In this document: positions 10,629 to 24,142 of the stretch, one piece after another
Layout: every line of letters begins with the position of its first letter
Position numbering within the stretch: position 1 is the first letter of the stretch
Source of the DNA: an uncultured Acidimicrobiaceae bacterium
Lineage (GTDB): Bacteria; Actinomycetota; Acidimicrobiia; Acidimicrobiales; Palsa-688
Reading direction: 5' to 3'
Assembly: GCA_963702305.1 (NCBI GenBank)
Contig: CAVPBX010000007.1
Span: forward strand, 92,998 to 124,997
DNA length: 32,000 bases
Position numbers and translations under genes: made by a program
Notes under the pieces: model-generated
What the model was told of the DNA's origin: nothing
The model's database searches: none
What the model saw: only the letters and a program-made list of their open reading frames with translations

Positions 10629-13223
10629 TCAGGGCAGGATCTCAACGTACCCCTCCGTTCCATTGAGGCGGATCCGCTGCCGATCGCGGATGAGCCGGGT
10701 GGCTTGCTCGACGCCCACGACAGCCGGCAAGCCGTACTCCCGGGCGATGACTGCGCCATGGGTCATCAGGCCGCCGACCTCCGTCACCAGGCCCGTGATC
10801 GCGACGAACAGGGGCGACCAGCTGGGGTCGGTGTAGGCCGTGACCAGGATGTCGCCCGGCTCGAGATCGGCCTCGGCCATGTCCATGATGACGCGGGCCC
10901 GCCCCTCGATGATCCCGGCGGATACCGGCAAACCAACTAGCGCGCCGGTCGGCACGTCGTGGCGTCGGTACGCCCCGGCGACTACCTCGCCATCCGACGT
11001 AAACACCCGGGGCGGCGTCAGCGCTTGATACGACCTGAACGCGTCCTTGCGCTGGGAGATGAGCTCATCATCCGCGTGGTTCGTGCGCACGACGTCGTGG
11101 AACTCTTGGAACGTGAGGTAGTACATGTCTTCCTTCTCACGAAGCACACGCGCCTGCACGAGCCGCCCGGCCTCTTCCAGCAAAGCCTGCTTGTACACGA
11201 AGTAGCGGCTGACCATGCCGTACTTCGGATACTCCCGGTACCCGATGAAGGTCCGGACCCGGTCGATCATCCGCTTGACCTCATCCGCCTTACGCTCCCC
11301 GTCCGGCAAGTCCCCCAAGCGCGCCAGCAGCTCTTGTTCCTTCTCCCAGGCCTCCTGCCGGCCTTGCTCGAAGCGCCGCTCGCCGGCGCCCGGCTCGAAG
11401 TTCTTGATGTTGCCGAGGATCAGGGGCACGAGCGTGGAGGGGCGTTCGCTCCATCGTGGTCTCGTGATGTCGATCTCACCGACGCAGCGCATGCCGTACT
11501 TGTCGAGGTAGGCCCGGATGGCGTCGCGGGCTTCCCGCCCGCCCGTAAGTTTGGCCATCTCGTCCAAGAAACCGTCGTCGTCGATGTGTCGCAGAAGCGC
11601 CACCACCTCCGGATACGGACGGATCACGTCCGCGACGTCCAGGAGCGCGAGCCCCATCTCCGACGTGACGTTATGGGGGACAGACTGGGTGAGCGTGTCC
11701 GCCGCGTTCTTCTCGCCCAGCCACGCCTCCAGCTGCTCGTTCAGCCACCACGTGGCCTCCATCGCCGACATGAACACCTGATGGCTGCGCGGATCGAACA
11801 GGATCCGCCTCAGCTCTTGGATGTCCGCCAAGATGAAGTCGAGCAGCGCCGATCCGGACGTCGTCGCGATGTCGCGCTTCAAGGCGGCAATGGAGGCCTC
11901 GCTACGTCCGATCAGATCGGTGACGATGGCCGGATCGGTCTCGATCGGCGCTGGCGCGCCGCCAGCCGGCATCGCATTCGGGCCCTCGTCAGGGAGCGAC
12001 GGGATGAAGTCGTCGCGTTCGAGGATGGTCTCTAGCGCGTCCCCGATCAGCGGATCGCCCCTTCCCAGGACCTCCAAGAGACCGGCGCGACTCGCTGGCG
12101 ACGCCAGGCCCACGGCGACATCGACGAAGAGCCTCCCACCGGCCACGTACATCGGCCGAGGTGTGGTCAGCTGCCAGAAGGAGAGCCCCAGGGGCTTCAT
12201 CGCGTCGGTCATCATCTGCGCATGACCGACAGACACGTACACATGGTTCTCTTGGTCGCCGGCCGCAGGGATAGGAAACAGTGTGGTGATCGGCCGGCTC
12301 TGGACGATCCGGAAGCTGTCATCGACCAGGCACCATTCGATGTCCTGGGGGCGGCCGAAGTGCCCTTCGATCCGCCGTCCCAACTGCGCGACTCGCACGA
12401 CCTGCGCATCAGTCAGTGCTGGCTTCTCCTGACGCTCCGGCTCGATCGCCAGTTCCTGCGTCCCGCCTGCCGGCGAGGCGTGAATGGCCAGCTGCTTGGT
12501 GGCGACCGCCTTGGCGACGATCTCGCCGTCCCGCACCTGGTAGACGTCCGCGTTCACCCGGCCGGAGACCAGGGCCTCGCCGAGTCCGAAGGTGGCCTCC
12601 ACCGAGCTGACCTTCCGGTTTGACGTGACCGGGTCGGCCGTGAAGACGACGCCGGCCGCCTGCGGGAAGACCATCTGCTGCACCACCACGGCCATGTGGA
12701 CCTTCCGGTGGTCGAATCCATTCCGCAAGCGGTAGGTCACGGCCCGATCGGTGAACAGGGAGGCCCAGCACCGACTGACGTGCTCGAGGATCGCCGCTGG
12801 CCCCACGACGTTCAGGTACGTGTCCTGCTGGCCGGCGAAGGAAGCAGACGGCAAGTCCTCCGCCGTCGCACTCGATCGGACTGCGTAAGCAGCATGTTCG
12901 CCGAGCCCGGCGACCGAGCCGGTGATCGCCGCCGCCAGATCGTCGGGGATGGCAATCCCTTCGATGGTCCGGCGGATCTCCGCGCTGAGCGTGCGGATCG
13001 CCTCCCGGTCATCCGGGCTCAGGCGCGACAGCCGACCGAGCCGATCGTCGATCGACGGCGCGTTCGCCATGATCCGCCGGAAGGCGTCCGTCGTCACACA
13101 GAAGCCGGCCGGTACGCGGATGCCTTCGATCCGCGAAAGCTCCCCAAGGTGCGCGCCCTTGCCGCCAACAACCGCGACTTGCGTCCGGTCGATCTCCTGG
13201 AAACCCAGCACGTAGCTGCCCAT
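10629..13223 (-). CDS. rph: PEP-utilising enzyme of the rifampin phosphotransferase (RPH) type, also annotated as phosphoenolpyruvate synthase-like
   Basis: 864 aa. N-terminal ATP-grasp (VVGGKGAHLGEL, FAVRSSATAEDLP..SFAGQ). C-terminal swivel phosphohistidine domain (TDPSWSPLF...GGLMTHGAVIAREYGLPAVVG). This architecture and length fit Rph. Start at ATG 13223 with a GGAAGGTGG Shine-Dalgarno sequence. The 13418 extension was rejected. Confidence 0.75.
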   Translation of the reverse strand: MGSYVLGFQEIDRTQVAVVGGKGAHLGELSRIEGIRVPAGFCVTTDAFRRIMANAPSIDDRLGRLSRLSPDDREAIRTLSAEIRRTIEGIAIPDDLAAAITGSVAGLGEHAAYAVRSSATAEDLPSASFAGQQDTYLNVVGPAAILEHVSRCWASLFTDRAVTYRLRNGFDHRKVHMAVVVQQMVFPQAAGVVFTADPVTSNRKVSSVEATFGLGEALVSGRVNADVYQVRDGEIVAKAVATKQLAIHASPAGGTQELAIEPERQEKPALTDAQVVRVAQLGRRIEGHFGRPQDIEWCLVDDSFRIVQSRPITTLFPIPAAGDQENHVYVSVGHAQMMTDAMKPLGLSFWQLTTPRPMYVAGGRLFVDVAVGLASPASRAGLLEVLGRGDPLIGDALETILERDDFIPSLPDEGPNAMPAGGAPAPIETDPAIVTDLIGRSEASIAALKRDIATTSGSALLDFILADIQELRRILFDPRSHQVFMSAMEATWWLNEQLEAWLGEKNAADTLTQSVPHNVTSEMGLALLDVADVIRPYPEVVALLRHIDDDGFLDEMAKLTGGREARDAIRAYLDKYGMRCVGEIDITRPRWSERPSTLVPLILGNIKNFEPGAGERRFEQGRQEAWEKEQELLARLGDLPDGERKADEVKRMIDRVRTFIGYREYPKYGMVSRYFVYKQALLEEAGRLVQARVLREKEDMYYLTFQEFHDVVRTNHADDELISQRKDAFRSYQALTPPRVFTSDGEVVAGAYRRHDVPTGALVGLPVSAGIIEGRARVIMDMAEADLEPGDILVTAYTDPSWSPLFVAITGLVTEVGGLMTHGAVIAREYGLPAVVGVEQATRLIRDRQRIRLNGTEGYVEILP

Positions 13224-13323
13224 CCGTCCACCTTCCCCTGAGCCGCCTCGGGCGCCTCTTGTCCCACGGTCAAACGGGCGGACGCCTCCGGTCCGGCCTG
13301 TGGCGTGCATTGTCAGCACACAA

Positions 13324-13344
13324 GGGGTCCTTGCAACAAGCCCC
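13324..13344. promoter_or_regulatory. Imperfect palindrome GGGGTCCTTGCAACAAGCCCC about 100 bp upstream of rph; resembles the rifamycin-associated element (RAE)
   Basis: GGGG..CTTG pairs with CAAG CCCC, with a 2-nt bulge and a 3-nt centre. Its position upstream of a rifamycin-resistance-type gene matches published RAE behaviour as I recall it. I could not check the consensus here. Confidence 0.4.
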
Positions 13345-13560
13345 CCACCCTGGTGTACATTGCTTATGGCGGAAGGGTGAATCGGCATCCTTGGCGGCAC
13401 CAGAGCCGGGCACGTCACCGAAGCTGGGGCTTATGCCTCCGCAATGAAGCGCACGCCACGGGAGTCGCTTTGTGTCGAACCTCCACACCAAGGGGACAAC
13501 GTGGCGCTACGCGTTCCGAAGGCGGAGCTCAGCACCGACATGAGGGAATTCCCCTGATCG

Positions 13561-14670
13561 TCATCTGCCAGGGTGCGGTGGCGCGGCGGGGAGTTGCACG
13601 GTGACGCAGAGGCCGCCCGCGGCCCGGGGGGTGAGGGTGAGGGTTCCGTCGTGTGCTTGGGTGATGCTCTTGACGATGGCCAGGCCGAGGCCGACACCGG
13701 CGTGGTCGGTGCGTATGCGCTTGGAGCCGCGCTGAAACGGCTCGACCAGCGTCGAAACCAGCTGTGGGGTGAGCTGCTCGCCGGTGTTCTCGACCGTGAG
13801 CACCACCCTCTTGGGGTGGGCGCTGGTGGTGACCCAGACGGTGCCCTGTTCGGTCAGGTTGTGGACGATCGCGTTGTGTACGAGGTTCGTCGTCATCTGC
13901 AGCAGGAGGGCGGGTGAGCCGGTGGTGGGGGTGGTGTCGCCAGAGGTCTCGATGGTGAGGCCGCGCTTTTCTGCGAGGGGAAGGAGCGTTTCGGTGGCTT
14001 GTTCGGCGAGGAGGGACAGGTCGACGTGTTCTGGGGTGAAAGAGCGCTGGTCGGCCCGACTGAGCAGGAGCAGTGCTTCGGTGAGGTCGATCGCTCGGGT
14101 GTTGACGAAGTGGAGGCGGTCGACCAGTTCGTCGTGGCCGCAGCTTTGACCGTTGCGGGCCACCTCGAGAAGTGTTTGTGTGATGGCGAGCGGAGTGCGC
14201 AGTTCGTGGGAGGCGTTGGCTGCGAACCTCTGCTGTTCAGCGATCTGTGTTTCGAGCCGGGCGAGCATGGCATCGAAGGCGTCGGCGAGGTCGCGGAACT
14301 CGTCGCGGCGGCCCGGCAGCCGGATTCGGTGGGCGAGCGATCCGGTCGTGGCCGTGCGGGTGGCGTCGGTAATGCGAGTCAGGGGGGCGAGCATGCGGCC
14401 GGCAAGCAGCCACCCACCCACGAGACCGAACACCAGCAGGAAAGCCAACACGGCGGCTGCCCTGGGCGCGAAAACGTGCAGGAGGTTGGACCGAACGGGA
14501 AAGACGCCATGAATGGAGGTGTCGGCGTTGACGAGGAACGCACGGTCGGGGACGTACCGCAGGAGGAACAGCCACACGGCGGCGAGCAGCATGGCGCCGG
14601 CGAGCATGAGGAAGCCGGCGTAGCTGAGGGTGAGTTTGAGGCGAACGCTCAAACCTGGGGCTCTATCCAC
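13561..14670 (-). CDS. vanS: VanS-type sensor histidine kinase
   Basis: Two TM helices with a short loop of about 30 aa, a HAMP domain, the H-box NASHELRTPLA, and N/G boxes (LVHNAIVHN, GVGLGLAIV). GTG start at 14670 overlaps the vanR stop by 8 nt. Identity rests on its partner and its context next to vanHAX. Confidence 0.8.
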   Translation of the reverse strand: MDRAPGLSVRLKLTLSYAGFLMLAGAMLLAAVWLFLLRYVPDRAFLVNADTSIHGVFPVRSNLLHVFAPRAAAVLAFLLVFGLVGGWLLAGRMLAPLTRITDATRTATTGSLAHRIRLPGRRDEFRDLADAFDAMLARLETQIAEQQRFAANASHELRTPLAITQTLLEVARNGQSCGHDELVDRLHFVNTRAIDLTEALLLLSRADQRSFTPEHVDLSLLAEQATETLLPLAEKRGLTIETSGDTTPTTGSPALLLQMTTNLVHNAIVHNLTEQGTVWVTTSAHPKRVVLTVENTGEQLTPQLVSTLVEPFQRGSKRIRTDHAGVGLGLAIVKSITQAHDGTLTLTPRAAGGLCVTVQLPAAPPHPGR

Positions 14671-15358
14671 GGTCTCCTCCCTCACGCCCTGAGTCTGGGT
14701 GAGTGTCGATGCGGTACCCGACGCCGGCCACGGTGGCGATGAGCCAAGGTTCGCCAAGGCGTTTGCGCAGCGCCGAGACCGTGATGCGCACCGCGTTGGT
14801 GAACGGGTCCGCGTTCTCATCCCACGCCCGTTCCAGCAGATCTTCGGCGCTGACCACGCCGCCTTCGGCCGCCACCAGAACCTCGAGCACCGCGAACTGC
14901 TTCCGGGTCAGCGCGACGTAGCGGCCGTCGCGGTACACCTCGCGGCGGAACGCATCCAACCGCAGACCCGCGATCTCTCGCACCGGCGGCCGGTTGTGAG
15001 CCCGCCGGCGGTCGAGCGCTCTGAGACGAAGCACCAGCTCCCGCAGCTCGAATGGCTTGGTGAGATAGTCGTCAGCGCCGAGTCCGAACCCCGAGGCCTT
15101 GTCGTCAAGCCGGTCGGCAGCGGTGAGCATGAGGATCGGCATGCCGCTACCAGAAGCGACGATGCGCTTGGCGATCTCGTCGCCAGAGAGCCCGGGGATA
15201 TCGCGGTCAAGCACGGCGATGTCGTAGGCGTTGACGCCCAGCAGATGTAAAGCGGTGTCGCCGTCACCGGCGATGTCCGCGGCGATCGCTTCCAGGCGAA
15301 GACCATCGCGGATGGCTTCTGCCATATAGGGCTCGTCCTCGACGATCAACACACGCAC
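14663..15358 (-). CDS. vanR: VanR-type OmpR-family response regulator
   Basis: MRVLIVEDEPYMAEAIRDGLRLEAIAADIAGDGDTAL...DIAVLDRDIPG...LTKPF... followed by a winged-helix C-terminus. From memory it closely resembles actinomycete VanR. It is divergent from a vanH-type promoter. Confidence 0.85.
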   Translation of the reverse strand: MRVLIVEDEPYMAEAIRDGLRLEAIAADIAGDGDTALHLLGVNAYDIAVLDRDIPGLSGDEIAKRIVASGSGMPILMLTAADRLDDKASGFGLGADDYLTKPFELRELVLRLRALDRRRAHNRPPVREIAGLRLDAFRREVYRDGRYVALTRKQFAVLEVLVAAEGGVVSAEDLLERAWDENADPFTNAVRITVSALRKRLGEPWLIATVAGVGYRIDTHPDSGREGGDRG

Positions 15359-15454
15359 ACTCTCGCGATGCTAGGCGCCGGGGCATATCGTCGGCGTATC
15401 GAAAACCGCATACGGGCTGGTAACACCACGCTGCGTTGACTGGAGGCATGACCT
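15329..15454. repeat. Copy A of the vanR-vanH control region: vanR codons 1-10, an 89-bp divergent intergenic region, and a dead vanH start stub
   Basis: Aligns colinearly with 16843-16970 at roughly 80% identity by eye. It ends in GGAGGC-ATGACCT, a 12-codon ORF (15448-15486, MTYSDSQGSHDT*) homologous to the vanH start. Weaker similarity may extend to about 15478. Confidence 0.8.
15385..15401. promoter_or_regulatory. Candidate VanR box, copy A: ATATCG-N5-GTATCG (11-bp phased direct repeat)
   Basis: The hexamers start at 15385 and 15396. The box lies 27 nt from the vanR GTG and 47 nt from the stub ATG. It is conserved in copy B. Confidence 0.45.
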
Positions 15455-15582
15455 ACAGCGACTCCCAGGGTTCCCATGACACGTGACGAATCGGCCTATG
15501 CCGGGCACTCGGCGCGACCAACGGCCATGTCCGCATCGGACTCCTCTCCGAGGCCATCTACGTCATCACCAATGCCGCAGCC

Positions 15583-16818
15583 GTGACCCAGCAGCGCACC
15601 AGGCCCGGCCGCGACGCCGACTGCCTGCCGGAGGAGTACCTCCGTCTCGAGCGGCGGTCGGCTCGGCGCCCACCCGCCAGGGGCCGGCGGCGGAGGGGGC
15701 GGATGGCCGTCCGGGTCCTGTCGGTGGCCCTCGGCCTGCTCGTGCTGTTCCTCGGGGCGTCGGTGTACGGAGCCGCCACCACGCCGGGCAACCAGAACTT
15801 CAAGGCCAAATGGGCCGACTGGTTGCGGTCCCACCACGCCGCCTTCGTCGTCAAGCCACTGGAGCAGTGGTACTACAACAGCCAGGCCCCGGCCAAGGGT
15901 GGCGCTCCCAAGGCCCTCAACCGGATCCCGGCGGCCTCTGCCCACCCGGCGGGCACCTCGGCGGCACCCGCCGGCCTGCCCGCCCCCAGCCCGGTACCGC
16001 TGGTCGTATCACCGGCCCTCCCGGGTGAGGGCCAGTGGCAGCCCACGGGGCCGATCGTCGACGGCCGGGCCGCCAGTTACGTGGCCCAGTTCCGGGCCGA
16101 CACCATCTACACCAGCCAGATCACCTCGGCGGTCTGGATCGACCCCACCCGGCTGAGGATCCGACTCGTCCCCGGCGCCCAAGAGCCGGGCGGTACCTGG
16201 AGCGTGCCGCCCGACCTCACCGGCACGGCGGCCGCCCAGGCGGTGGCCGCCTTCAACGGGGGGTTCCGGTTCCAGGATGCCCACGGCGGGTTCTACCTGG
16301 GCGGTCGCACCGCCGTACCCCTGGTGAACGGCGCCGCGTCGGTGGTCATCTACAAGGACGGCCGGGTCAACGTCGGCGCCTGGGGCACCGACGTGGCCAT
16401 GACCCCCTCGGTCGAGGCCGTCCTGCAGAACCTGGTGCCGCTGGTCGACAACGGCCAGATCGCCCCCGACGCCACCTACCACGACACCCACATCTGGGGG
16501 AACACCCTCGGCGCCAACACCGTCGTGGCCCGCTCCGGGCTGGGGGTGACGACGTCGGGGGCGCTGATGTACGTGGCCGGCCCGGCCCTGACGGCCAAGA
16601 CGCTGGCCGAGTCGCTGCAGCGGGCCGGGGCAGTGCGGGGGATGACCCTCGACATCAACCCGGAGTGGGTTACGTTCAACTTCTACACCCACCCCGACCC
16701 CGCCGATCCCACCTCGATCACCGGAGCCAAGCTGTATCCGCAGATGCAGCGCTCGGCCGACCGGTACCTCGGCCCCACCGAGGAGTCGCGTGACTTCTTC
16801 TCCGTGTCGACCAGCTGA
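15583..16818 (+). CDS. Membrane-anchored phosphodiester glycosidase family (NAGPA/DUF2233-like) exo-protein
   Basis: Arg-rich N-terminus, TM helix VLSVALGLLVLFLGASVYG, then AAFNGGF...GGFYLGG, VARSGLGVT..GALMYVAGP, GMTLDINPEWV, typical of the bacterial phosphodiester glycosidase family. GTG 15583, or ATG 15703 as an alternative start. Confidence 0.7.
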   Translation: MTQQRTRPGRDADCLPEEYLRLERRSARRPPARGRRRRGRMAVRVLSVALGLLVLFLGASVYGAATTPGNQNFKAKWADWLRSHHAAFVVKPLEQWYYNSQAPAKGGAPKALNRIPAASAHPAGTSAAPAGLPAPSPVPLVVSPALPGEGQWQPTGPIVDGRAASYVAQFRADTIYTSQITSAVWIDPTRLRIRLVPGAQEPGGTWSVPPDLTGTAAAQAVAAFNGGFRFQDAHGGFYLGGRTAVPLVNGAASVVIYKDGRVNVGAWGTDVAMTPSVEAVLQNLVPLVDNGQIAPDATYHDTHIWGNTLGANTVVARSGLGVTTSGALMYVAGPALTAKTLAESLQRAGAVRGMTLDINPEWVTFNFYTHPDPADPTSITGAKLYPQMQRSADRYLGPTEESRDFFSVSTS

Positions 16819-16842
16819 ACGCGGAGGGCTTCTCCCTTGTCA

Positions 16843-16970
16843 GGGCTCGTCCTCGACCGTCAACACACACCCACACACTCGCGATCGTACGAACCGGAAC
16901 ATATCGTCGGTATATCGAAAACTACATACGTGCTGGCAACAGGCCGCGGCGTTGAATGGAGGCGTGACCT
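16843..16970. repeat. Copy B of the vanR-vanH control region: dead vanR 5-prime stub, promoter region, and the live vanH start
   Basis: The minus strand at 16866-16840 reads GTG TTG ACG GTC GAG GAC GAG CCC TGA (VLTVEDEP*), compared with vanR MRVLIVEDEP. Homology stops exactly after codon 10. The copy ends at the GGAGGC-GTGACCT vanH start. Confidence 0.8.
16901..16917. promoter_or_regulatory. Candidate VanR box, copy B: ATATCG-N5-ATATCG (perfect 11-bp phased direct repeat), 47 nt upstream of the vanH GTG
   Basis: The hexamers are at 16901-16906 and 16912-16917. The distance to the start codon is the same as in copy A. Confidence 0.45.
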
Positions 16971-17953
16971 CTGGCAAAGCAGATAGCGCCGTCCCAAGGG
17001 TGGGAATCACCATCTACGGGTGCGGGCCGGACGAAGCCCTTTTGTTCCGAGAGATGGCGCCTCGCTTTGGCGTCAAGCCAACTATCACCGATGCCGCGGC
17101 ATCAGATGCAACTATTGACTTGGCATCTGGGAATCGATGCGTCAGCGTCGGCCACAAGACTCAAATCTCAGGTGACATTCTGCTTGCGCTTCGCCAAGCC
17201 GGTGTTATGTACCTCTCCACTAGAAGTGTTGGATACAACCATATCGATGTCAAACTGGCGGAGAGCGTCGGCATCTCCGTTGAAAACGTCACCTATTCTC
17301 CGGACAGCGTTGCTGACTACACGTTGATGTTGATGCTCATGGCGGTGCGGAATGCCAAATCCACCATCAGCCGCGCCCAGGTTCATGATTACCGATTGAA
17401 TGAAGTACGAGGGAAAGAACTCCGCGACCTGACCATCGGAGTCATCGGAACAGGACACATCGGTGCCGCCGTGATGGACAGGCTGCGGGGGTTTGGTTGC
17501 CACGTACTGGCCTGTGACCGTTGTCCGAAGACCTCTGCCGAATACCTGCCTCTCGACGAGCTGCTACGGCAGAGCGACCTTGTGACGCTCCATACACCAC
17601 TCACCGCCGACACCCACCATCTGCTGAATCGTCAACGTATCGGGCAGATGAGGCACGGAGCATTCATTATCAATACGGGGCGTGGTGCACTTCTCGATAC
17701 CGAGGCCCTTGTCCCGGCGCTGGAGAGCGGCCGCCTCGGGGGTGCGGCGTTGGATGTCCTCGAAGGCGAGGAAGGAGTCTTCTACTCTGACCACAGAAGG
17801 AGACCCATTCAAAGCCAACTGTTGTTGCGGTTACAACAGTTACCGAATGTGCTGATTACTCCGCACACCGGCTACTACACCGATCACGCCCTGAGCGATA
17901 CCGTCGAAAACACGTTCCTCAATTGCCTGCGCTTTGAAAGAAGAGAAGCGTGA
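16964..17953 (+). CDS. vanH: VanH, D-specific alpha-keto acid (pyruvate to D-lactate) dehydrogenase
   Basis: ITIYGCG...GYNHID...IGVIGTGHIGAAV (NAD-binding GxGxxG)...NTGRGALLD...ITPHTGYYT. GTG start with a GGAGG Shine-Dalgarno sequence. GTGA coupling to the ligase gene. About 329 aa. Confidence 0.9.
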   Translation: MTSGKADSAVPRVGITIYGCGPDEALLFREMAPRFGVKPTITDAAASDATIDLASGNRCVSVGHKTQISGDILLALRQAGVMYLSTRSVGYNHIDVKLAESVGISVENVTYSPDSVADYTLMLMLMAVRNAKSTISRAQVHDYRLNEVRGKELRDLTIGVIGTGHIGAAVMDRLRGFGCHVLACDRCPKTSAEYLPLDELLRQSDLVTLHTPLTADTHHLLNRQRIGQMRHGAFIINTGRGALLDTEALVPALESGRLGGAALDVLEGEEGVFYSDHRRRPIQSQLLLRLQQLPNVLITPHTGYYTDHALSDTVENTFLNCLRFERREA

Positions 17954-18984
17954 ATAGGTTGAGAGTCGCAGTCATCTTCGGAGGTTGCTCCGAAGAACAT
18001 CCCATCTCGGTCAAATCCGCGCAGGAGGTGGCAACACACCTCGACCTTGAGAAGTATGAACCGTTCTATATCGGGATCACAAGAAGCGGTACCTGGAAGC
18101 TCTGTGACGGCCCTGACGCAGGCTGGGACAACGGCAGCTGCCGTCCGGCGATGCTGTCACCGGACAGAGGCCTACACGGATTGCTTGTCCTGAAGCAGGG
18201 CCACTACGAAACGATCAGTCTGGACCTCGTCTTCCCCGTGCTCCACGGCAAACTCGGCGAGGACGGGGCGATACAAGGTCTGCTGGAGCTGTCCGGCATC
18301 CCCTACGTAGGCTGCGATGTCCAAAGTTCTGCCCTGTGCATGGACAAATCTCTTGCCTATCTCGTTGCGAGCAACGCGGGAATTGCTATACCAAGGTTCT
18401 GGACCGTCACGGCGAACGAGGATCTCGACCCCGACCGGATTACTTATCCAGTCTTCGTGAAGCCGGCCCGTTCGGGTTCATCGTTCGGCGTCAGTCGTGT
18501 AAGTGAGAAACAAGAGCTGCCGAGTGCGGTTGAGACCGCAAGGCAATACGACTCGAAAGTGTTGATCGAAGAGGTTGTTGTCGGCAGCGAGGTGGGATGC
18601 GCGATCTTCGGGAACGACACGGATTTGATTGCAGGAGAGCCAGATCGAATCTCGCTAGCTCATGGGTTCTTTAGAATCCATCAGGAGAATCAGCCTGAAA
18701 GCGGTTCTGAGAACTCCACTTTCATCGTTCCCGCCGACATCTCGACAGAGGCGCGCGACCTCGTTCAGGAAACAGCAAAGACCCTATATCGAGCCTTGGG
18801 ATGCAGGGGACTCTCGCGAGTGGACATGTTCCTGAAGGAAGACGGAACGGTAGTCCTGAACGAGGTCAACACGCTGCCCGGTATGACCTCATACAGCCGT
18901 TATCCGAGAATGATGGCAGCCGCGGGACTGTCGCTGGCCGATGTGATCGACCGGATCGTGTCGTTGGCGTTGAACGGAAAGTGA
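17950..18984 (+). CDS. vanA: VanA-type D-alanine--(R)-lactate ligase
   Basis: MNRLRVAVIFGGCSEEHPISVKSA...EKYEPFYIGITRSGTWK...GEDGAIQGLLELSGIPYVGCDVQSSALCMDKSL...YPVFVKPARSGSSFGV...FRIHQENQPESGSEN...NEVNTLPGMTSYSRYPRMMAAAG is near-colinear with enterococcal VanA as I remember it, including the omega-loop and the HQE region characteristic of D-Ala-D-Lac ligases. Confidence 0.92.
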   Translation: MNRLRVAVIFGGCSEEHPISVKSAQEVATHLDLEKYEPFYIGITRSGTWKLCDGPDAGWDNGSCRPAMLSPDRGLHGLLVLKQGHYETISLDLVFPVLHGKLGEDGAIQGLLELSGIPYVGCDVQSSALCMDKSLAYLVASNAGIAIPRFWTVTANEDLDPDRITYPVFVKPARSGSSFGVSRVSEKQELPSAVETARQYDSKVLIEEVVVGSEVGCAIFGNDTDLIAGEPDRISLAHGFFRIHQENQPESGSENSTFIVPADISTEARDLVQETAKTLYRALGCRGLSRVDMFLKEDGTVVLNEVNTLPGMTSYSRYPRMMAAAGLSLADVIDRIVSLALNGK

Positions 18985-19613
18985 TGATGCACGAGGACTT
19001 TGTCTTTGTCGACGAGATCGTATCCGGAGTACGTTGGGATGCGAAGTACGCCACGTGGGACAATTTCACTGGCAAGCCGGTGGACGGATATCTAGTAAAT
19101 CGGATCGTCGGCTCGCGGACCTTGTGTGCGGCCCTGGGGACAGCGCGAGAGGTAGCAGGATCCCTTGGCTTCGGCTTGCTGCTCTGGGACGGGTATCGTC
19201 CTCAACGCGCCGTGGATTGCTTCCTGCGCTGGTCCAGACAGCCGGAAGATGACCGGACGAAACGAAGACACTATCCTCACATCGACAGGTCCGAGATCGT
19301 CGCACAAGGATATGTAGCTGAGAAGTCGGGCCACAGTCGGGGCAGCACCGTTGACTTGACGCTCTATCACTTGGCCACCGGTGAACTCGCTCCAATGGGC
19401 GGGGACCATGACCTGATGGATCCGATCTCACATCATGGAGCAAAGGGAATCACGCAAGTTGAAGCGAGAAACCGGCAGCGCCTTCGTTCGATCATGGAGT
19501 CCGGCGGGTTTAGATCCTACGATTGCGAGTGGTGGCATTACACACTGAAGGACGAACCCTATCCGAGCACCTATTTTGATTTTCCCATCACCACTGTTGA
19601 GCCAATTGAATAG
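18984..19613 (+). CDS. vanX: VanX D-Ala-D-Ala dipeptidase
   Basis: DAKYATWDNFTG, LLLWDGYRP, SGHSRGSTVDLTL (Zn ligands), CEWWHYTL. The ATG overlaps the ligase stop codon (TGATG). Confidence 0.92.
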   Translation: MMHEDFVFVDEIVSGVRWDAKYATWDNFTGKPVDGYLVNRIVGSRTLCAALGTAREVAGSLGFGLLLWDGYRPQRAVDCFLRWSRQPEDDRTKRRHYPHIDRSEIVAQGYVAEKSGHSRGSTVDLTLYHLATGELAPMGGDHDLMDPISHHGAKGITQVEARNRQRLRSIMESGGFRSYDCEWWHYTLKDEPYPSTYFDFPITTVEPIE

Positions 19614-20812
19614 ACTATGTCTGGGGGAGAGGTGCGGGTCGACGGGATGGTGACGGTGCAGGAGAGGCCTCCGTCGTTACGGGGGCGGGCGGTGGTGGTA
19701 CCGCCGTGGATCTCGGCAATGGACGCCACGATGGTCAGGCCCAGGCCGAAGCCGTCGTTCGACGAGCGGTTGTTGAGCCGCTGGAATGGATGGAAGATGC
19801 GGTCGGCGTCCGCCGGGCTGATGATTTGGCCAGTGTTTGCGACGGTTAGCTGGCTGTTTCCGGCTGCGGTACGGGTGCTGATCCAGATGTCGCCGGAAGC
19901 GACGTTGTAGCGCACCGCGTTGTCGACCAGGTTGGCGATGAGGCGTTCGACGAGCACCGGATCGCCGGATATGACGGCGCGTTCCAGCGTGGCGTGCACT
20001 TGCCGGTCGCTCAGGCCGGCGGTGTCGAGGATGTCTTCGGCGACCGTGGCCAGGTCGATCTCCTCGTGGACCGCGAGGCCGCGCTCGTTGCGGGCGAGGA
20101 TGAGTAGCGCGCCGATGAGGTGCTCGGCGTGATCCACGGCGGCGCGGATGTCGGCCGCCATGGCTCGCAGCTCGCCGGGGGTGCTGTCAGGGTTGCCGAC
20201 CACGACGTCGATCGTCGTGCCCATGACGGCGAGGGGGGTGCGCAGTTCGTGGGAGGCGTTGGCGATGAACCGCTGTTGGGCTTCGAACGCGGTCTGGAGC
20301 CGGCCGAGCATGTCGTCGAACGTCTCGGCCAGCTCTCGGAGTTCGTCCCGGGGACCTCTCGGCGCGATCCGCGCCGAGAGGTTGTGTTGCGAGGCGGCGC
20401 GGGCGGCCGCGGTGATCCGGTGTACTGGGCGCAGCGCCCGCCCGGCGAAGATCCATCCGAGGATGGCGGCGAGGGCGATGACGACGCCGAGGGTGATCAG
20501 CGAGTACTGCAGCAGGCGCGTCAGGGTGAGGGCGCGCTGCGCTTGCGCGCCCAGGTCGGCCAGAAAAGACCCGGGGCAATTGGAGGAGCCGAGGAAGCGC
20601 TTGTCGCCGCTCAGGTACGCGGACTTGCAGTGAGCCAAGAAGCTGGCCGGAACGCCACTATACGAAGCAGGTGGCTGGGCCTGCCTGGCCACCCCTAGCT
20701 GAGCCACCAGGGTGTAGCTGACGGCCACGATGATCCCCCCACACAGGGCGAACAGGCCGGTGTAGATCAGGGTCAGGCGGGCTCGGACGGTCAGGCGCGG
20801 ACCGCGGGTCAC
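19571..20812 (-). CDS. Sensor histidine kinase (HK2), paralogous to VanS
   Basis: TM1 LTLIYTGLFALCGGIIVAVSYTLVA, an extracytoplasmic loop of about 60 aa with two Cys residues, TM2, HAMP, and the H-box NASHELRTPLA. GTGA overlap with RR2. Its last 14 codons plus the stop codon are antisense to the vanX 3-prime end (43-bp convergent overlap). Confidence 0.8.
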   Translation of the reverse strand: MTRGPRLTVRARLTLIYTGLFALCGGIIVAVSYTLVAQLGVARQAQPPASYSGVPASFLAHCKSAYLSGDKRFLGSSNCPGSFLADLGAQAQRALTLTRLLQYSLITLGVVIALAAILGWIFAGRALRPVHRITAAARAASQHNLSARIAPRGPRDELRELAETFDDMLGRLQTAFEAQQRFIANASHELRTPLAVMGTTIDVVVGNPDSTPGELRAMAADIRAAVDHAEHLIGALLILARNERGLAVHEEIDLATVAEDILDTAGLSDRQVHATLERAVISGDPVLVERLIANLVDNAVRYNVASGDIWISTRTAAGNSQLTVANTGQIISPADADRIFHPFQRLNNRSSNDGFGLGLTIVASIAEIHGGTTTARPRNDGGLSCTVTIPSTRTSPPDIVYSIGSTVVMGKSK

Positions 20813-21453
20813 ATTCTGTATCCCTTGCCTACGACGGTCTCGATCAACGGCGGGTCGCCGAGCTTGCGCCGCAGCCGGGTCATAGTGACGGAGACGATAT
20901 TGCTGAACGGGTCGGAGTTGGCGTCCCACACCTGTTCGAGCAGCTCCTCTGCGCTGACCAAGGCGCCGTCAGCGGCCAGCAGCGTCTCGAGGATCCCGAA
21001 CTCTTTGCGGGTCAGCGTGAGCGGGCTGCCGGCGCGCATGGCGCGGTGGCGGGCGCGGTCGACGGTGAGGTCCTCGCGGACCAATACTGGCGGCGCTGAC
21101 GGCGCTCGGCGCGACAGCGCCCGCACGCGGGCGACGAGCTCGGCGAATGCGAATGGCTTGGGCAGGTAGTCGTCCGCGCCCAGTTCCAGCCCGTCGACGC
21201 GGTCATCGACGTCCCCGGCGGCGGTCAGCATGAGGATCCTCGGGCCGGAGCCGGCTACGTCCCGGCAGACCCGGTCCCCATGGAGGACCGGTAGGTCGCG
21301 GTCGAGCACGATTACGTCATAGGCCGTCTGGTCGGCGGCGTCCAGTGCGGCCGCGCCGTCATACACGACGTCGGTGGCCATCCCGGCCTGACGCAGCCCT
21401 TGAGCGATCCGGTCGGCGAGCGTCGCATGGTCTTCGACCACCAGGACGCGCAT
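20809..21453 (-). CDS. OmpR-family response regulator (RR2)
   Basis: MRVLVVEDHATLADRIAQGL...YDVIVLDRDLPVLHGD...LPKPF...LTRKEFGILETL...GKGYRM. ATG 21453 chosen; the 21720 extension was rejected. Confidence 0.85.
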   Translation of the reverse strand: MRVLVVEDHATLADRIAQGLRQAGMATDVVYDGAAALDAADQTAYDVIVLDRDLPVLHGDRVCRDVAGSGPRILMLTAAGDVDDRVDGLELGADDYLPKPFAFAELVARVRALSRRAPSAPPVLVREDLTVDRARHRAMRAGSPLTLTRKEFGILETLLAADGALVSAEELLEQVWDANSDPFSNIVSVTMTRLRRKLGDPPLIETVVGKGYRM

Positions 21454-21539
21454 CAGGCCATTATGCGCTGCTCGACATGACATCCGTGCAACATCGCCTG
21501 TAGCGCTGATGTCACCCGCCGGAGCGTACAACTGCAGGC

Positions 21540-22214
21540 ATGAAGCCAGTTCATCCTGCCGGCCGCCCTTGCAGAGGCGACGGCCCGCTGCGCCTCGTCC
21601 GGTCGAACGTCGAGGGCACGGGATGGATCGTCGGCGGGCGGGGAGCCTGGCGGCCCAGGAGCGTTTCGCTGACCGCGCTGTTGATTGTCGTGTTGGGTCT
21701 GACCGCGTGCGGGGGCGCATCGTCGCACCGCCCGGGAACTGCCAGCGCCGTCGGTACCACCACCAGCGCCTCGGCCGGTGGCAGTACGCAAGCAGGCGGA
21801 CTCCTGGCGTTCGCCTCCTGTATGCGCTCGCACGGCGTGCCGAACTTCCCCGACCCGACCGCCAGCGGTGGGATCCCGAAGCCTGCCGTTGTCAGCGCAT
21901 TCCAGGCGGTCGGCAACGCCCAGGCGCAGGCGGCCCAGAACGCCTGCAACCACTTGCTCCCCGCCGGAGGGTTGAGTGGGCAGGCCAGCCAGACGGTCAC
22001 CGCCCAAGACCAGCAGGACTACCTCAACGCTGCTGCCTGTATGCGCTCGCACGGGATCACCAACTTCCCCGACCCCGTCTTCTCCAACGGCCACGTCAAC
22101 CTCAACATCCCCTCCAGCATCGACAGCAAGTCACCGCAGTTCACCCAGGCCGCCCAGACCTGCACAAAGCTCATCCCCGCGGGACTCCCCTACAGCAGGG
22201 GCTCCGGAGGATGA
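21540..22214 (+). CDS. Lipoprotein with two tandem CMRSHG-x3-FPDP ... C repeat units, function unknown
   Basis: Lipobox LGLTAC. Unit 1 is FASCMRSHGVPNFPDP...AAQNACNHLLP. Unit 2 is AAACMRSHGITNFPDP...AAQTCTKLIP. Divergent from RR2. The 3-prime end overlaps the RR3 3-prime end by 25 bp. Confidence 0.7.
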   Translation: MKPVHPAGRPCRGDGPLRLVRSNVEGTGWIVGGRGAWRPRSVSLTALLIVVLGLTACGGASSHRPGTASAVGTTTSASAGGSTQAGGLLAFASCMRSHGVPNFPDPTASGGIPKPAVVSAFQAVGNAQAQAAQNACNHLLPAGGLSGQASQTVTAQDQQDYLNAAACMRSHGITNFPDPVFSNGHVNLNIPSSIDSKSPQFTQAAQTCTKLIPAGLPYSRGSGG

Positions 22215-22888
22215 CGCGATGTCAGCGTTGGGTCGATGATCCGGTAGCCGACCCCGGGGATGGTTTCGATCACGTCGGGGGGGCCGAGTTTGCGGCGCAG
22301 CCGGCCGATGGTGACCTGAACCGTTTTGGTGAAGGGGTCGGTGTGTTCGTCCCAAGCCTGTTCGAGGAGGTCCTCGGTGCTGAGGGTGGCGGGCGAGGCC
22401 CGCATGAGCGCTTCGAGCACGGCGAACTCCTTGGTGGTCAGCTCGCACGGCTGGCCGGCCCGGGAGGTGGTCCGGCGGAGCGGGTCGAGCTCGAGGTCGG
22501 CCGCTTTGAGGATGCGGGGCTGAGCGGTGGGTTTTCGTCGGGCCAGGGCCCGCAGCCGCAGGACCAGCTCAGGGAAGTGGAACGGTTTGGGCAGGTAGTC
22601 ATCCGCGCCGAGCCCGAGCCCGCTGACCCGATCCGCGGGGGCGTCGGCCGCGGTGAGCATGAGCACCATGGCCGGGTCATCGCTCTCGGTGATCATCTTG
22701 CAGATGGTGTCGCCGTGGATACCGGGAAGGTCGCGGTCCAGTACGACGACGTCGTAGCGGTTGATGTCCAGCTTGGCGGCGGCGTCGAGCCCCGTGTAGG
22801 CGACGTCGACCGCCATGCCTCGGTCTCGGAGGCCCTCGGCGATGTCGTCGGCCAGTCGCCGCACGTCTTCCACGACCAGCACCTTCAT
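22190..22888 (-). CDS. OmpR-family response regulator (RR3)
   Basis: MKVLVVEDVRRLADDIAEGL...YDVVVLDRDLPGIHGD...LPKPF...LTTKEFAVLEAL...GVGYRI. ATGA overlap with the upstream kinase gene. Confidence 0.85.
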   Translation of the reverse strand: MKVLVVEDVRRLADDIAEGLRDRGMAVDVAYTGLDAAAKLDINRYDVVVLDRDLPGIHGDTICKMITESDDPAMVLMLTAADAPADRVSGLGLGADDYLPKPFHFPELVLRLRALARRKPTAQPRILKAADLELDPLRRTTSRAGQPCELTTKEFAVLEALMRASPATLSTEDLLEQAWDEHTDPFTKTVQVTIGRLRRKLGPPDVIETIPGVGYRIIDPTLTSRHPPEPLL

Positions 22889-24142
22889 GGCAACTCTCGA
22901 TTCGGGCAGGGGGGTGCGGCGTGAGGAAGCTCGACCGCCACGCGCATCCCTCCTTGTGGGCGGGCCCCGAGTTCGATGGTTCCGTGGTGGGCGGCGGCGA
23001 TGGCTGCGACGATGGACAGACCGAGCCCGAGCCCGCCGTCGGCGCCGGTCCGCTCGCCGCCGCCTCGCCAGAACGGTCGGCCCAACTGGCCGGCCTCGGC
23101 GGGTTCGAGGATGGGACCGCTGTTCTCGACGATCAAGCGGGCGGATGGACCCTCAGTCGTGGTTGTGACCTGCACCCACCCGCCGGGCTGGTTGTAGCGG
23201 ATGGCGTTGTCGATCAGGTTGACGGCGAGACGGGCAAGGAGGGTTCGGCTGCCGGCGACCTCCGCCTCGTCAAGGCGGCGGTGCAGGGTCACGTCGGCTG
23301 CGACGGCACCGTCGGCTCGGGTGTCGAGAGCGTCCGCGGTGAGGTGGGGCAACGAGACCGTCGTCAGGTCGTCGATCATCCCCCGCTGGGCTCGGGCCAG
23401 CACCAGGAAGCTCTCCACCAGCCGTTCGGCCTGGTCGAGCCCCTCGCGGACCTTGGCCGAAAGCACCGACGCGTCCTTCGAAATGGGCGGAGACTTGGCC
23501 GCGGCAACATCCAGGGAGGTGCGCATCATGGCGAGCGGGGTGCGAAGCTCGTGCGAGGCGTTGGCCACGAAAGCTCGCTGGGCGCCGAAGGCGCCCTCCA
23601 GCCGGGCGACGAGCCCGTCGATGGTGTCAGCCAGGTCCGTGATCTCGTCACTCGGGCCGGCCAAGCCAAGCCGCTCGTGGAGGTTCTCCTCGGAGATGTG
23701 CCGCGCCGTGGAGGTGATGTGCCGCAGCGGGCGAAGCACCCGACCGGCCATGAGCCATCCCAGCACGACGGAGGCCAGGGCCATGACGCCCAACGCCACC
23801 GCGAACCACACCAGCAGAGTGCGCAAATCCGCGGAGTGCTGTGCGCTTGTCGCGCGCGCGCACCACGCCGGCGCCAGCCGGGAGGATGTGGACGGTGTTC
23901 GAGGGCCCAGGCGAGTGAATGACTGGGCTGCGTGGGGAGGTGATGTGGACGGTGGCCGCGAACGGGAAGCGGGCCACGAACAGGTAACTGATACCAAGCA
24001 GGGCCGCGCCGCAGAGAACGAACAGCGCCCCATAGGCGAGGGCGAGGCGCACCCGCACCGTCCGCCGGGGCAGGCGAGCGCGGGCCAACCGGCGGGCCAC
24101 ACAGGCGTAGGGTCCGAAGGCCACTCCGGTCACGGGTCGCAC
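22885..24142 (-). pseudogene. Sensor histidine kinase (HK3), apparently frameshifted in the extracytoplasmic loop
   Basis: TM1 (VRVRLALAYGALFVLCGAALLGISYLFVA) is in the frame of ORF 23648..24142. TM2, HAMP, the H-box (NASHELRTPLA) and the ATPase domain are in the frame of ORF 22885..24102. The frames switch near the (CG)5 tract at 23851-23861. Confidence 0.65.

What the first reader, a model, noticed from the sequence alone, without database searches (positions are those of the whole stretch)
15329..16970. The vanR-vanH control region is present twice and brackets a non-van gene, so the locus looks like a fusion of two ancestral van clusters
Copy A (15329-15454) and copy B (16843-16970) align colinearly at roughly 80% identity by eye. 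The shared blocks are gggctcgtcctcgac, caacacac, catatcgtcgg, tatcgaaaac, catacg, gctgg, gttga, tggaggc and tgacct. Copy A holds the live vanR start (GTG 15358, codons 1-10). It ends in a dead 12-codon stub (ATGACCT..., 15448-15486) that is homologous to the vanH start. Copy B begins with a dead vanR stub (VLTVEDEP then TGA on the minus strand, 16866-16840) and ends in the live vanH start (GTG 16964). Homology breaks exactly after vanR codon 10. The level of divergence argues against a fresh target-site duplication. It fits two orthologous van loci joined together: vanS-vanR-P-vanH' from one and 'vanR-P-vanHAX from the other. As a result, the gene between the copies (15583-16818) sits where a vanH gene used to be, downstream of a VanR-type promoter.
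Basis: seen in the sequence. Interest (0 to 1): 0.85.

Follow-up and report, generated by a model that had tools for sequence, protein, structure and literature searches.

The report
Duplicated VanR promoter cassette flanking accessory gene
In a vancomycin-resistance cluster of an uncultured soil actinobacterium (Acidimicrobiales), the switch region between the regulator gene vanR and the resistance operon is present twice, so a cell-wall enzyme gene between the copies probably also comes under antibiotic control; this is a new example of a known, modular way of building such clusters.

Summary
The repeat is real. Window 15307-15461 and 16820-16976 align at about 80% identity (score 87; shuffles 9.5±1.3). 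Copy B carries a dead 5' piece of vanR, and copy A ends in a 12-codon stub.

The element is the conserved divergent vanR control region of a large family of soil actinobacterial van clusters. Its core motif lay next to vanR or vanH in at least 120 metagenome contigs. It is also present on Streptomyces and Embleya plasmids.

In this family the region, together with the first codons of both flanking genes, behaves as a portable cassette. Copies sit in front of vanH, vanY, S11 carboxypeptidase, vanK, murF and PhyH genes. Extra copies with vanR stubs occur in other contigs.

The bracketed gene encodes a membrane-anchored protein with the NAGPA/DUF2233 phosphodiester glycosidase fold. Homologues are linked to van genes in four other contigs.

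The closest relative (L218) has the same order. Identity to the window falls from 96% in the bracketed gene to 83-86% in vanHAX, so a recombination breakpoint lies at copy B.

However, the stub is a generic leader, homology runs to vanR codon 18, and an in-situ duplication is not excluded. This is a new variant of a known kind, of moderate interest.

The parts
13561..14670 (-). vanS (sensor kinase). The start is probably GTG 14670, preceded by GGGAGGAG. The longest ORF runs to 14820.
   Evidence: Pfam HAMP/HisKA/HATPase_c. Best NCBIfam model is VanS-O, 486.6 bits, below its 720 cut-off. Start candidates.
14663..15358 (-). vanR (OmpR-type response regulator), live copy
   Evidence: Pfam Response_reg + Trans_reg_C. 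Best NCBIfam model is VanR-O, 463.4 bits, cut-off 505. It is 85-95% identical to the VanR next to the same motif in about 90 metagenome contigs.
15307..15461 (.). Copy A of the control cassette. It comprises vanR codons 1-18, the 89-nt intergenic region and the first 5 codons of the leader.
   Evidence: Alignment with copy B. Up to 90-95% identical to vanR-adjacent regions of other contigs. 35 of 36 family-conserved columns kept.
15384..15412 (+). Candidate VanR box of copy A (CATATCGTCGGCGTATCGAAAACCGCATA; ATATCG direct repeats 11 nt apart)
   Evidence: The motif lies 22-25 nt from the vanR start in the family. Binding was not tested.
15448..15486 (+). 12-codon stub ORF (MTYSDSQGSHDT) behind GGAGG 15442-15446. 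It is a remnant of the cassette's generic leader.
   Evidence: The first 14 nt match the family leader ATGACCTACAGCGA. Similar stubs occur in L095, L096, L136, L197 and L111. No homology beyond 15461.
15583..16818 (+). Bracketed gene. It encodes an Arg-rich N-terminal tail, one TM helix, a Pro/Ala linker and an extracytoplasmic NAGPA/DUF2233-fold domain. An alternative start is ATG 15703, behind GGAGGGGG.
   Evidence: Pfam PF09992, 26.2 bits, cut-off 25. N-terminal extension conserved in homologues. AF2 pLDDT 87.9. Foldseek 3ohg E 2.8e-10 and vertebrate NAGPA E about 1e-8 to 1e-9.
16820..16976 (.). Copy B of the control cassette. It comprises the vanR fossil, the intergenic region and the start of vanH.
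   Evidence: 34 of 36 family-conserved columns kept.
16820..16875 (-). Dead 5' fragment of vanR (..VLTVEDEP, then TGA, then frameshifted remains to about codon 18)
   Evidence: Comparable fossils occur in L218 (14 intact codons) and in L111, L132, L141 and L153.
16900..16928 (+). Candidate VanR box of copy B (CATATCGTCGGTATATCGAAAACTACATA)
   Evidence: Exact match to the family motif.
16964..17953 (+). vanH (D-lactate dehydrogenase). The start is GTG behind GGAGG 16958-16962. Its leader is about 29 codons shorter than in L082, L084 and L218.
   Evidence: Pfam 2-Hacid_dh. NCBIfam vanH_gen 533.9 bits, cut-off 540. Leader comparison.
17950..18984 (+). vanA-type D-Ala-D-Lac ligase
   Evidence: NCBIfam D_ala_D_lac equivalog 622.3 bits, cut-off 550. 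Best sub-model is VanI, 665 bits.
18984..19613 (+). vanX (D-Ala-D-Ala dipeptidase). The start is ATG 18984 or 18987.
   Evidence: NCBIfam VanX equivalog 394 bits, cut-off 320. Starts.

Best explanation
The repeated element is the divergent control region of a widespread actinobacterial van-cluster family. It comprises a candidate VanR box, a ribosome-binding site and a start codon, plus the first codons of vanR on one side and of a generic leader on the other.

The window holds two copies:
- Copy A is the live vanR promoter region. Rightwards it most likely drives the bracketed NAGPA-fold gene.
- Copy B drives vanHAX and carries a fossil of a second vanR start.

Inferred consequence: phosphorylated VanR switches on three units together when glycopeptides are sensed. 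These are vanRS, the NAGPA-fold gene (with possible read-through into vanHAX, since no terminator is seen) and vanHAX. This parallels the four VanR-dependent units of Streptomyces coelicolor.

Inferred origin: modular recombination. A 'vanR-P-vanHAX module was joined just after the stop codon of the NAGPA-fold gene of a vanSR-P-NAGPA module.

Inferred role: the NAGPA-fold protein is an accessory, extracytoplasmic cell-wall enzyme recruited from a large family of envelope-stress genes in Acidimicrobiales. Its substrate is unknown.

Family context:
It lies 22-25 nt from the start of a VanR that is 85-95% identical to the window's, or in front of vanH.
- It is also present on a Streptomyces plasmid between vanR and a vanJ-like EEP gene. 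On an Embleya plasmid it lies in front of vanK and vanH.
- Both window copies keep nearly all family-conserved positions: 35/36 and 34/36.

Cassette behaviour:
- ORFs starting 64-65 nt after the motif share MTYSEPARTAARRTRS. They continue as VanY (43 copies), VanH (23), S11 peptidase (17), a Cys-rich lipoprotein-like protein (6), PhyH (2) or NAGPA (1). There are also 18 short stubs.
- Second copies on one contig occur in L082, L159, L127/L172, L122 and L128.
- vanR fossils lie beside copies in L218, L111, L132, L141 and L153.

Same architecture elsewhere:
- L218 has NAGPA (95.8% nt), then 'vanR, P and vanHAX-murF.
- L082 has rph-vanS-vanR-P-NAGPA paralogue-P-vanHAX-murF.

Mosaicism:
- Window vs L218: 95.8% in the NAGPA gene, 83-86% in vanHAX.
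- Window vs L082: NAGPA 41% aa, with flanks 81-90% aa.
- Window vs L002: NAGPA 89%, VanA 79%.

NAGPA fold and family neighbours:
- Fold evidence.
- Other family members sit beside OmpR-type two-component systems, an L,D-transpeptidase and a class A PBP.

Precedent:
Against: - No transcript, binding or induction data exist for this family. The VanR box is inferred from position and conservation only.
- The simple sigma-70 scan found no promoter in 15250-17050.
- 96 nt separate the stub's stop from GTG 15583 (216 nt to ATG 15703). This stretch is not conserved with strain IK, so an independent promoter could lie there.
- GTG 15583 has no obvious Shine-Dalgarno sequence.
- Most close NAGPA homologues (76-81%) are not van-linked (L003, L207, L208, L210, L214).
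- The order of evolutionary events cannot be resolved from about 150 nt. B's nearest relatives are only 81% identical.
Confidence: 0.6

Rival explanations
1. Simple in-situ event. A canonical vanS-vanR-P-vanHAX cluster received the NAGPA gene by illegitimate insertion into the first codons of the leader. About 150 bp of the target was duplicated, with no second van cluster involved. Later recombination produced the mosaic identities.
For: - B's vanR fossil is at least as close to the window's own vanR lineage (62/77; L203 and L176 64/77) as to L082 or L084 (57/77, 55/75).
- From B's side, A ranks 3rd-4th of 126.
- The B copy of L218 is 85% identical to window A.
- The window and L082 share both flanks (rph 84%, VanS 81%, VanR 90%, VanHAX 83-89%).
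Against: - The sharp drop from 96% to 83-86% at the NAGPA stop codon against L218 requires at least one inter-cluster exchange at this point.
- Four different sequences follow the same stop codon in the window, L218, L078 and L002.
- 'vanR-P-vanHAX modules without a full vanR exist elsewhere.
- No transposase or inverted repeats flank the gene.
Confidence: 0.25
2. Copy A serves only vanR. The NAGPA-fold gene is expressed from its own promoter in the unconserved spacer 15487-15582 (or up to 15702) and is not part of the VanR regulon. Its position is a by-product of recombination.
For: - The spacer is not conserved between the window and strain IK.
- The stub ends in a stop codon.
- ATG 15703 has its own GGAGG.
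- Most NAGPA relatives are controlled, if at all, by other two-component systems.
Against: - In L082 the NAGPA paralogue is fused in frame to the cassette's start codon.
- In L002 the gene is joined 1 nt upstream of vanH in one operon.
- In L207 a 76% homologue keeps the cassette-like start TTGACCAGGGGAGTGACATACAGG.
- No terminator was found between copy A and the gene, and the spacer RNA has no unusual structure (z = 0.5).
Confidence: 0.12
3. The similarity is an assembly or binning artefact, or reflects only convergent regulator-binding sites.
For: The window is metagenome-derived. The identical proteins P0001 and P0121 come from one 388-kb contig.
Against: - The two copies differ at 20% of positions, so they are not a collapsed or duplicated read artefact.
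- The same order is found on independent contigs from other samples (L218, L082).
- Homology covers a non-functional vanR fragment, which binding-site convergence cannot explain.
Confidence: 0.03

Closest known systems
Streptomyces coelicolor vanRSJKHAX cluster (four VanR-dependent transcription units: vanRS, vanJ, vanK, vanHAX; PMC4790382)
   Same: - One VanRS pair controls several promoters within one cluster.
- An accessory gene is transcribed divergently from vanR, in the vanJ position.
- vanHAX has its own promoter further on.
- The same motif and leader occur on Streptomyces and Embleya plasmids, in front of vanJ-like, vanK and vanH genes.
   Different: - The accessory gene here has the NAGPA/DUF2233 fold. 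It is not VanJ (EEP family) or VanK (Fem family).
- The second promoter copy still carries a dead vanR start.
- The host is an Acidimicrobiales bacterium. A 2021 survey found no van-like genes in 216 assemblies of that order (PMC8698665).
- No expression data exist.
Enterococcal Tn1546 (VanA) PvanR and PvanH, both bound by phospho-VanR (established knowledge, not re-read here)
   Same: One regulator acts on two promoters of the same cluster.
   Different: - The regulator lineage is different: the VanR-ABDEGLN model scores only 117.7 bits.
- The motif is different.
- The enterococcal promoters are not tandem copies of one segment with gene-end fossils.
vanO cluster of Rhodococcus equi (VanR-O, VanS-O)
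   Same: VanR-O and VanS-O are the best-scoring NCBIfam models for the window's VanR and VanS.
   Different: - Scores are below the curated cut-offs (463 vs 505; 487 vs 720).
- The ligase scores best with VanI, not VanO.
- The gene order differs.
NAGPA 'uncovering enzyme' and bacterial DUF2233 (PDB 6PKY/6PKU, 3OHG)
   Same: The C-terminal 287 residues share the fold: Foldseek probability 1.0, TM 0.53-0.60. There is also a marginal Pfam PF09992 hit.
   Different: - Sequence identity is only 14-19%.
- The window protein is anchored by an N-terminal TM helix.
- Catalytic residues and substrate were not examined.
- No link to glycopeptide resistance was found in the searched literature.

Membership tests
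Direct (segmental) repeat of common descent | Two collinear copies more alike than chance, including parts with no shared function | tested here: met
   Score 87 vs shuffles 9.5±1.3. Homology covers a dead vanR fragment with a stop and a frameshift.
VanR-dependent promoter (VanR regulon member) | Conserved operator-like motif at a fixed position next to vanR or van genes | tested here: met
   The motif occurs in at least 120 metagenome stretches, 22-25 nt from the vanR start or upstream of vanH, vanY, vanK or murF. Both window copies keep 34-35 of 36 conserved columns. Part of that conservation is imposed by the search pattern itself.
VanR-dependent promoter (VanR regulon member) | Binding of phospho-VanR, and glycopeptide-inducible, vanR-dependent transcription | not testable with these tools
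   No expression or binding data are available. The sigma-70 consensus scan found nothing.
vanHAX resistance operon | D-Ala-D-Lac ligase, D-lactate dehydrogenase and D,D-dipeptidase in one operon | tested here: met
   D_ala_D_lac equivalog 622 bits vs cut-off 550. VanX 394 vs 320. vanH_gen 533.9 vs 540, just under the cut-off, but both 2-Hacid_dh Pfam domains are present. The genes overlap or abut.
VanR-O / VanS-O (vanO type) | Score above NCBIfam's curated cut-off | tested here: not met
   463.4 < 505 and 486.6 < 720. These are related proteins, not members.
NAGPA / DUF2233 phosphodiester glycosidase | Pfam PF09992 above the gathering score | tested here: met
   26.2 bits vs 25, which is marginal. 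The L082 paralogue scores 30.6.
NAGPA / DUF2233 phosphodiester glycosidase | Same three-dimensional fold | tested here: met
   Model pLDDT 87.9. 3ohg E 2.8e-10, TM 0.60. 6pky and 6pku E 3e-9 to 3e-8.
NAGPA / DUF2233 phosphodiester glycosidase | Catalytic residues and phosphodiester glycosidase activity | not tested
   Active-site residues were not mapped. There is no biochemistry.
Transposon or IS insertion with target-site duplication | Transposase gene or terminal inverted repeats, and short identical flanking repeats | tested here: not met
   No inverted repeats flank 15583-16818. There is no transposase ORF. The repeats are about 150 nt long and 20% diverged.

The most novel reading that the evidence does not exclude
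The vanR-vanH control region, with the first codons of both flanking genes, may be a portable expression cassette. Copies in direct repeat on either side of an accessory gene would give homology arms for capturing and swapping such genes between van clusters, an integron-like modularity without an integrase. By this route Acidimicrobiales would have recruited, more than once, an extracytoplasmic phosphodiester glycosidase as a new glycopeptide-resistance accessory function. One possible activity is cleavage of sugar-1-phosphate linkages of wall polymers or of lipid-linked precursors trapped by the antibiotic.
Probability: 0.2. Interest if true: 0.7.

Novelty: new variant of a known kind. Interest (0 to 1): 0.5.

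Why it matters
Environmental actinobacteria are regarded as the reservoir of the van genes seen in clinical isolates. Three points follow from this locus and its relatives:
- Clusters are assembled from modules that each carry their own VanR-responsive switch. That is a simple route by which new genes can come under glycopeptide control.
- van clusters occur in Acidimicrobiales, an order in which a 2021 survey found none.
- A candidate new accessory gene family (NAGPA fold) has been joined to van genes in several independent ways. If it contributes to resistance, it would point to a cell-wall step not covered by vanHAX, vanY, vanJ or vanK.

Tried and rejected
- **Low G+C of vanHAX as evidence for a recent fusion.** vanHAX is 56% G+C and its flanks are 67%. 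Rejected, because the same contrast is found in every related cluster, including canonical vanSR-vanHAX ones (L084, L082, L002, L218).
- **Incongruence between VanR/VanS and VanH/A/X identity matrices.** The signal is too weak, because VanR is 83-94% identical throughout.
- **Extension of the copy-A stub into a longer vanH remnant.** None was found beyond 15461.
- **A third, inverted cassette copy upstream of rph,** suggested by inverted repeat I4. The score is no better than shuffles.
- **Rfam families and RNA structure in the leader.** No family matched, and the fold z-score is 0.5.
- **Sequence search of the PDB with the NAGPA alignment.** It returned only a spurious hit to a designed repeat protein.
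- **First AlphaFold model.** Built from 12 sequences, it was too poor to use (pLDDT 48.7). A second model from 75 sequences was good.
- **Exact look-ups of the window's own proteins** (the 411-aa NAGPA ORF and its 100%-identical database match P0001). These found no record.
- **Novotna et al. 2012 (VanJ).** The paper could not be read.
Full report
**1. What is in the window**

The region is a glycopeptide-resistance cluster in a high-G+C genome (about 67%). Gene order:
- rph, a rifamycin phosphotransferase: 10629-13418, minus strand
- vanS: 13561-14670, minus strand
- vanR: 14663-15358, minus strand
- a 411-codon gene: 15583-16818, plus strand
- vanH: 16964-17953
- a vanA-type ligase: 17950-18984
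- vanX: 18984-19613

Two further OmpR-type two-component systems follow, and there is no murF. Homologues of the bracketed protein are annotated almost only from Acidimicrobiales MAGs. An identical protein comes from a 388-kb contig. The source is therefore an uncultured Acidimicrobiales bacterium.

**2.

Window 15307-15454 aligns with 16820-16970 at 121 of 148 positions, with two small indels. The local score is 87. Shuffles gave 9.5±1.3 with a maximum of 16, and the best unrelated stretch of the window scored 18. The repeat finder finds the same pair.

Two corrections:
- Homology continues past vanR codon 10 to about codon 18, with a 1-nt indel (17 of 21 further columns identical). It ends 1-2 nt after the stop codon of the bracketed gene.
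- No homology to vanH leaders exists beyond 15461 in copy A.

**3. What the repeated element is**

I took the blocks shared by the two copies as a pattern (CATATCGnnGGnnTATCnAAAnnnnCATA) and scanned public metagenomes.
- In about 90 of them the motif lies 22-25 nt from the start of a VanR that is 85-95% identical to the window's. In others it lies in front of vanH.
- The same element is present on a Streptomyces plasmid, between vanR and a vanJ-like EEP gene.
- On an Embleya plasmid it occurs twice, in front of vanK and in front of vanH.

The element is therefore the control region of a large family of soil actinobacterial van clusters that includes the S. coelicolor type. [quoted passage not shown] That all four depend on VanR is my recollection of Hong et al. 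2004. The vancomycin-inducible vanJ promoter is described in PMC6001138.

The ATATCG direct repeats 11 nt apart fit an OmpR-type operator. This is inference; binding was not tested. Both window copies keep 35 and 34 of the 36 most conserved family columns. Part of that conservation is imposed by the search pattern.

**4. The region behaves as a cassette that includes the first codons of both neighbours**

In 131 distinct copies, the ORF that starts 64-65 nt after the motif begins with a shared leader, M/V-T-Y-S-E-P-A-R-T-A-A-R-R-T-R-S, whatever follows (Pfam checks):

| Product after the leader | Copies |
|---|---|
| VanY (M15) | 43 |
| VanH | 23 |
| S11 D,D-peptidase | 17 |
| Cys-rich lipoprotein-like protein | 6 |
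| PhyH dioxygenase | 2 |
| NAGPA paralogue | 1 |

VanK in Embleya starts MSYSEP. Eighteen copies end in short stubs like the window's, for example in L095, L096, L136, L197 and L111. The 'vanH stub' of copy A is thus the generic leader, not proof of a lost vanH.

Second copies on one contig are common:
- L082 and L159: an accessory gene, then vanHAX
- L127/L172: PhyH, then vanY
- L122
- L128

Fossils of the vanR start (about 10-14 codons) lie beside promoter copies in L218, L111, L132, L141 and L153. In L111 an inverted copy drives murF.

**5. The bracketed gene**

- Pfam gives a marginal NAGPA hit (26.2 bits, cut-off 25).
- The N-terminal 40 codons from GTG 15583 are conserved at the protein level in L002, strain IK and more distant homologues.
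- A model of the C-terminal 287 residues is confident (pLDDT 87.9).
- The model matches DUF2233 (3ohg; E 2.8e-10, TM 0.60) and the vertebrate uncovering enzyme NAGPA (E about 1e-8 to 1e-9).
- The protein is a membrane-anchored, extracytoplasmic enzyme of the phosphodiester glycosidase fold. Its catalytic residues and substrate are untested.
- The family is multi-copy in Acidimicrobiales. Members usually sit beside OmpR-type two-component systems, and also beside an L,D-transpeptidase or a class A PBP. This suggests a cell-envelope stress role.

Links between NAGPA-fold genes and van genes:

| Contig | Arrangement |
|---|---|
| L218 | 95.8% nt homologue, then 'vanR-P-vanHAX-murF |
| L002 | 89% aa homologue, stop codon 1 nt from the vanH ATG; no promoter copy between |
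| L078 (Acidiferrimicrobium sp. IK) | vanS-vanR-copy A-stub-NAGPA |
| L082 | a 41% aa paralogue in the same slot, fused in frame to the leader |

Other homologues of 76-81% identity are not van-linked.

**6. Origin**

The cluster family is mosaic:
- Window vs L218: nucleotide identity is 95.8% in the NAGPA gene. It falls to 86/83/84% in vanH/vanA/vanX and to 77% in copy B.
- Window vs L082: the flanks are 81-90% identical at protein level (rph, VanS, VanR, VanH, VanA, VanX), but the NAGPA-fold proteins share only 41%.
- Window vs L002: NAGPA 89%, VanA 79%.
- Four different sequences follow the same NAGPA stop codon in the window, L218, L078 and L002.

This supports a modular joining.

The data do not show that A and B come from different lineages:
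- A-B identity (80%) equals the family background. The median for A is 81%, and about 70 copies are closer to A than B is.
- B has no closer relative than about 81%.
- B's vanR fossil is at least as close to the window's own vanR (62/77) as to L082 (57/77) or L084 (55/75).
- The B copy of L218 is 85% identical to window A.

A local duplication followed by later exchanges remains possible. I rate it 0.25, against 0.6 for the module-joining account with two working promoters.

**7. How it most likely works**

- Shown: two copies of a family-conserved control region, each with a ribosome-binding site and a start codon. No terminator-like site and no unusual RNA structure lie between copy A and the bracketed gene. 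No space for a terminator exists between that gene and copy B.
- Inferred: VanS senses glycopeptide and phospho-VanR binds both boxes. Copy A fires leftwards (vanRS) and rightwards (stub, then the NAGPA-fold gene, with possible read-through). Copy B fires rightwards (vanHAX).
- Inferred: copy B also keeps a TAnnnT hexamer (TACGAT) where the family has its vanR-side TAGCAT. It might make an antisense RNA into the 3' end of the bracketed gene.
- Not shown: any expression, any binding, and any role of the enzyme in resistance.

**8. Known or new**

Several VanR-dependent promoters in one cluster, and accessory genes divergent from vanR, are known from S. coelicolor. The following are new here:
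- the accessory gene family;
- the preserved vanR fossil that records how the second promoter arrived;
- the extent to which the control region, with its shared leader codons, recurs in front of unrelated genes;
- the host order. A 2021 survey found no van-like genes in 216 Acidimicrobiales assemblies (PMC8698665).

No paper in the searched library links phosphodiester glycosidases with vancomycin.

**Verdict:** new variant of a known kind; interest 0.5.

Noticed in passing
window 16964-19613; also L082, L084, L002, L218: vanHAX has much lower G+C (51-60%) than vanRS, murF, the NAGPA gene and the flanks (62-77%). This holds in every cluster of the family examined, not only in the window. The ligase scores best with the VanI model (665 bits). 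This suggests an old acquisition of the vanHAX core from a donor with lower G+C, not yet ameliorated.
   Followed up: partly
window 15448-15461 and 16964-16976; L087-L206, L216: The first roughly 16 codons after the control region (MTYSEPARTAARRTRS) are shared by unrelated proteins: cytoplasmic VanH, and membrane-anchored VanY, S11 peptidase, VanK, NAGPA and PhyH. Third codon positions are as conserved as the others. Several codons end in A (GAA CCA GCA CGA), which is unusual for high-G+C genomes. This hints at a constraint at the DNA or RNA level.
   Followed up: partly
window about 13324-13346 (minus strand), upstream of rph; L082 about 2800-2900: A stretch upstream of rph is almost identical between the window and L082 (GTACACCAGGGTGGGGGGCTTGTTGCAAGGACCCCTTGTGTGCTGACAATGCA). 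It contains an imperfect palindrome. From memory, it resembles the rifamycin-associated element described upstream of rifamycin-resistance genes in actinobacteria; I did not check this.
   Followed up: no
window 19571-24102: Two more OmpR-type two-component systems lie directly after vanX on the minus strand: HK2/RR2 at 19571-21453 and RR3/HK3 at 22190-24102. RR3 is 52% identical to VanR. murF, which follows vanX in L082, L084, L217, L218 and L002, is absent from the window.
   Followed up: partly
L111 4200-4800; L132, L141, L153: In L111 an inverted copy of the control region, nearly identical to its partner, drives murF. A 10-codon vanR fossil lies between the two copies.
   Followed up: partly
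window 16964-17010 vs L082 6512-6650, L084 6925-7060, L218 1643-1780: The window's vanH lacks about 29 leader codons that are present in its closest relatives. The sequence around the gap (GTGACCT...GGACCTGG in L084) suggests a deletion between short GACCT repeats.
   Followed up: no
L207 6240-6300: Upstream of a non-van-linked NAGPA homologue (76%), a 17-nt unit (CCAGAGGCTGTGTCGCG) is repeated three times in tandem. It occupies the place where the VanR box would be. The gene still starts with a cassette-like TTGACCAGGGGAGTGACATACAGG.
   Followed up: no
L004, L012, L013, L016, L017, L024, L025, L043, L058, L075, L208, L210-L214: NAGPA-fold paralogues of Acidimicrobiales are very often adjacent to OmpR-type response regulator and kinase pairs (about 40% identical to VanR). 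Some also lie beside a YkuD L,D-transpeptidase or a class A PBP. This looks like a recurrent 'two-component system plus NAGPA' envelope module.
   Followed up: partly
L084/L085 11800-17035: A canonical vanSR-vanHAX-murF cluster of this family lies next to NlpC/P60 and DUF6112 genes. This gene set looks like part of an actinobacterial conjugative element, which suggests these clusters are mobile.
   Followed up: no
L078 9200-9600: The NAGPA gene of Acidiferrimicrobium sp. IK shows two apparent frameshifts relative to the window, both in G/C runs. It is either a pseudogene or carries homopolymer sequencing errors. The contig ends 150 nt after the gene, so whether vanHAX follows is unknown.
   Followed up: no
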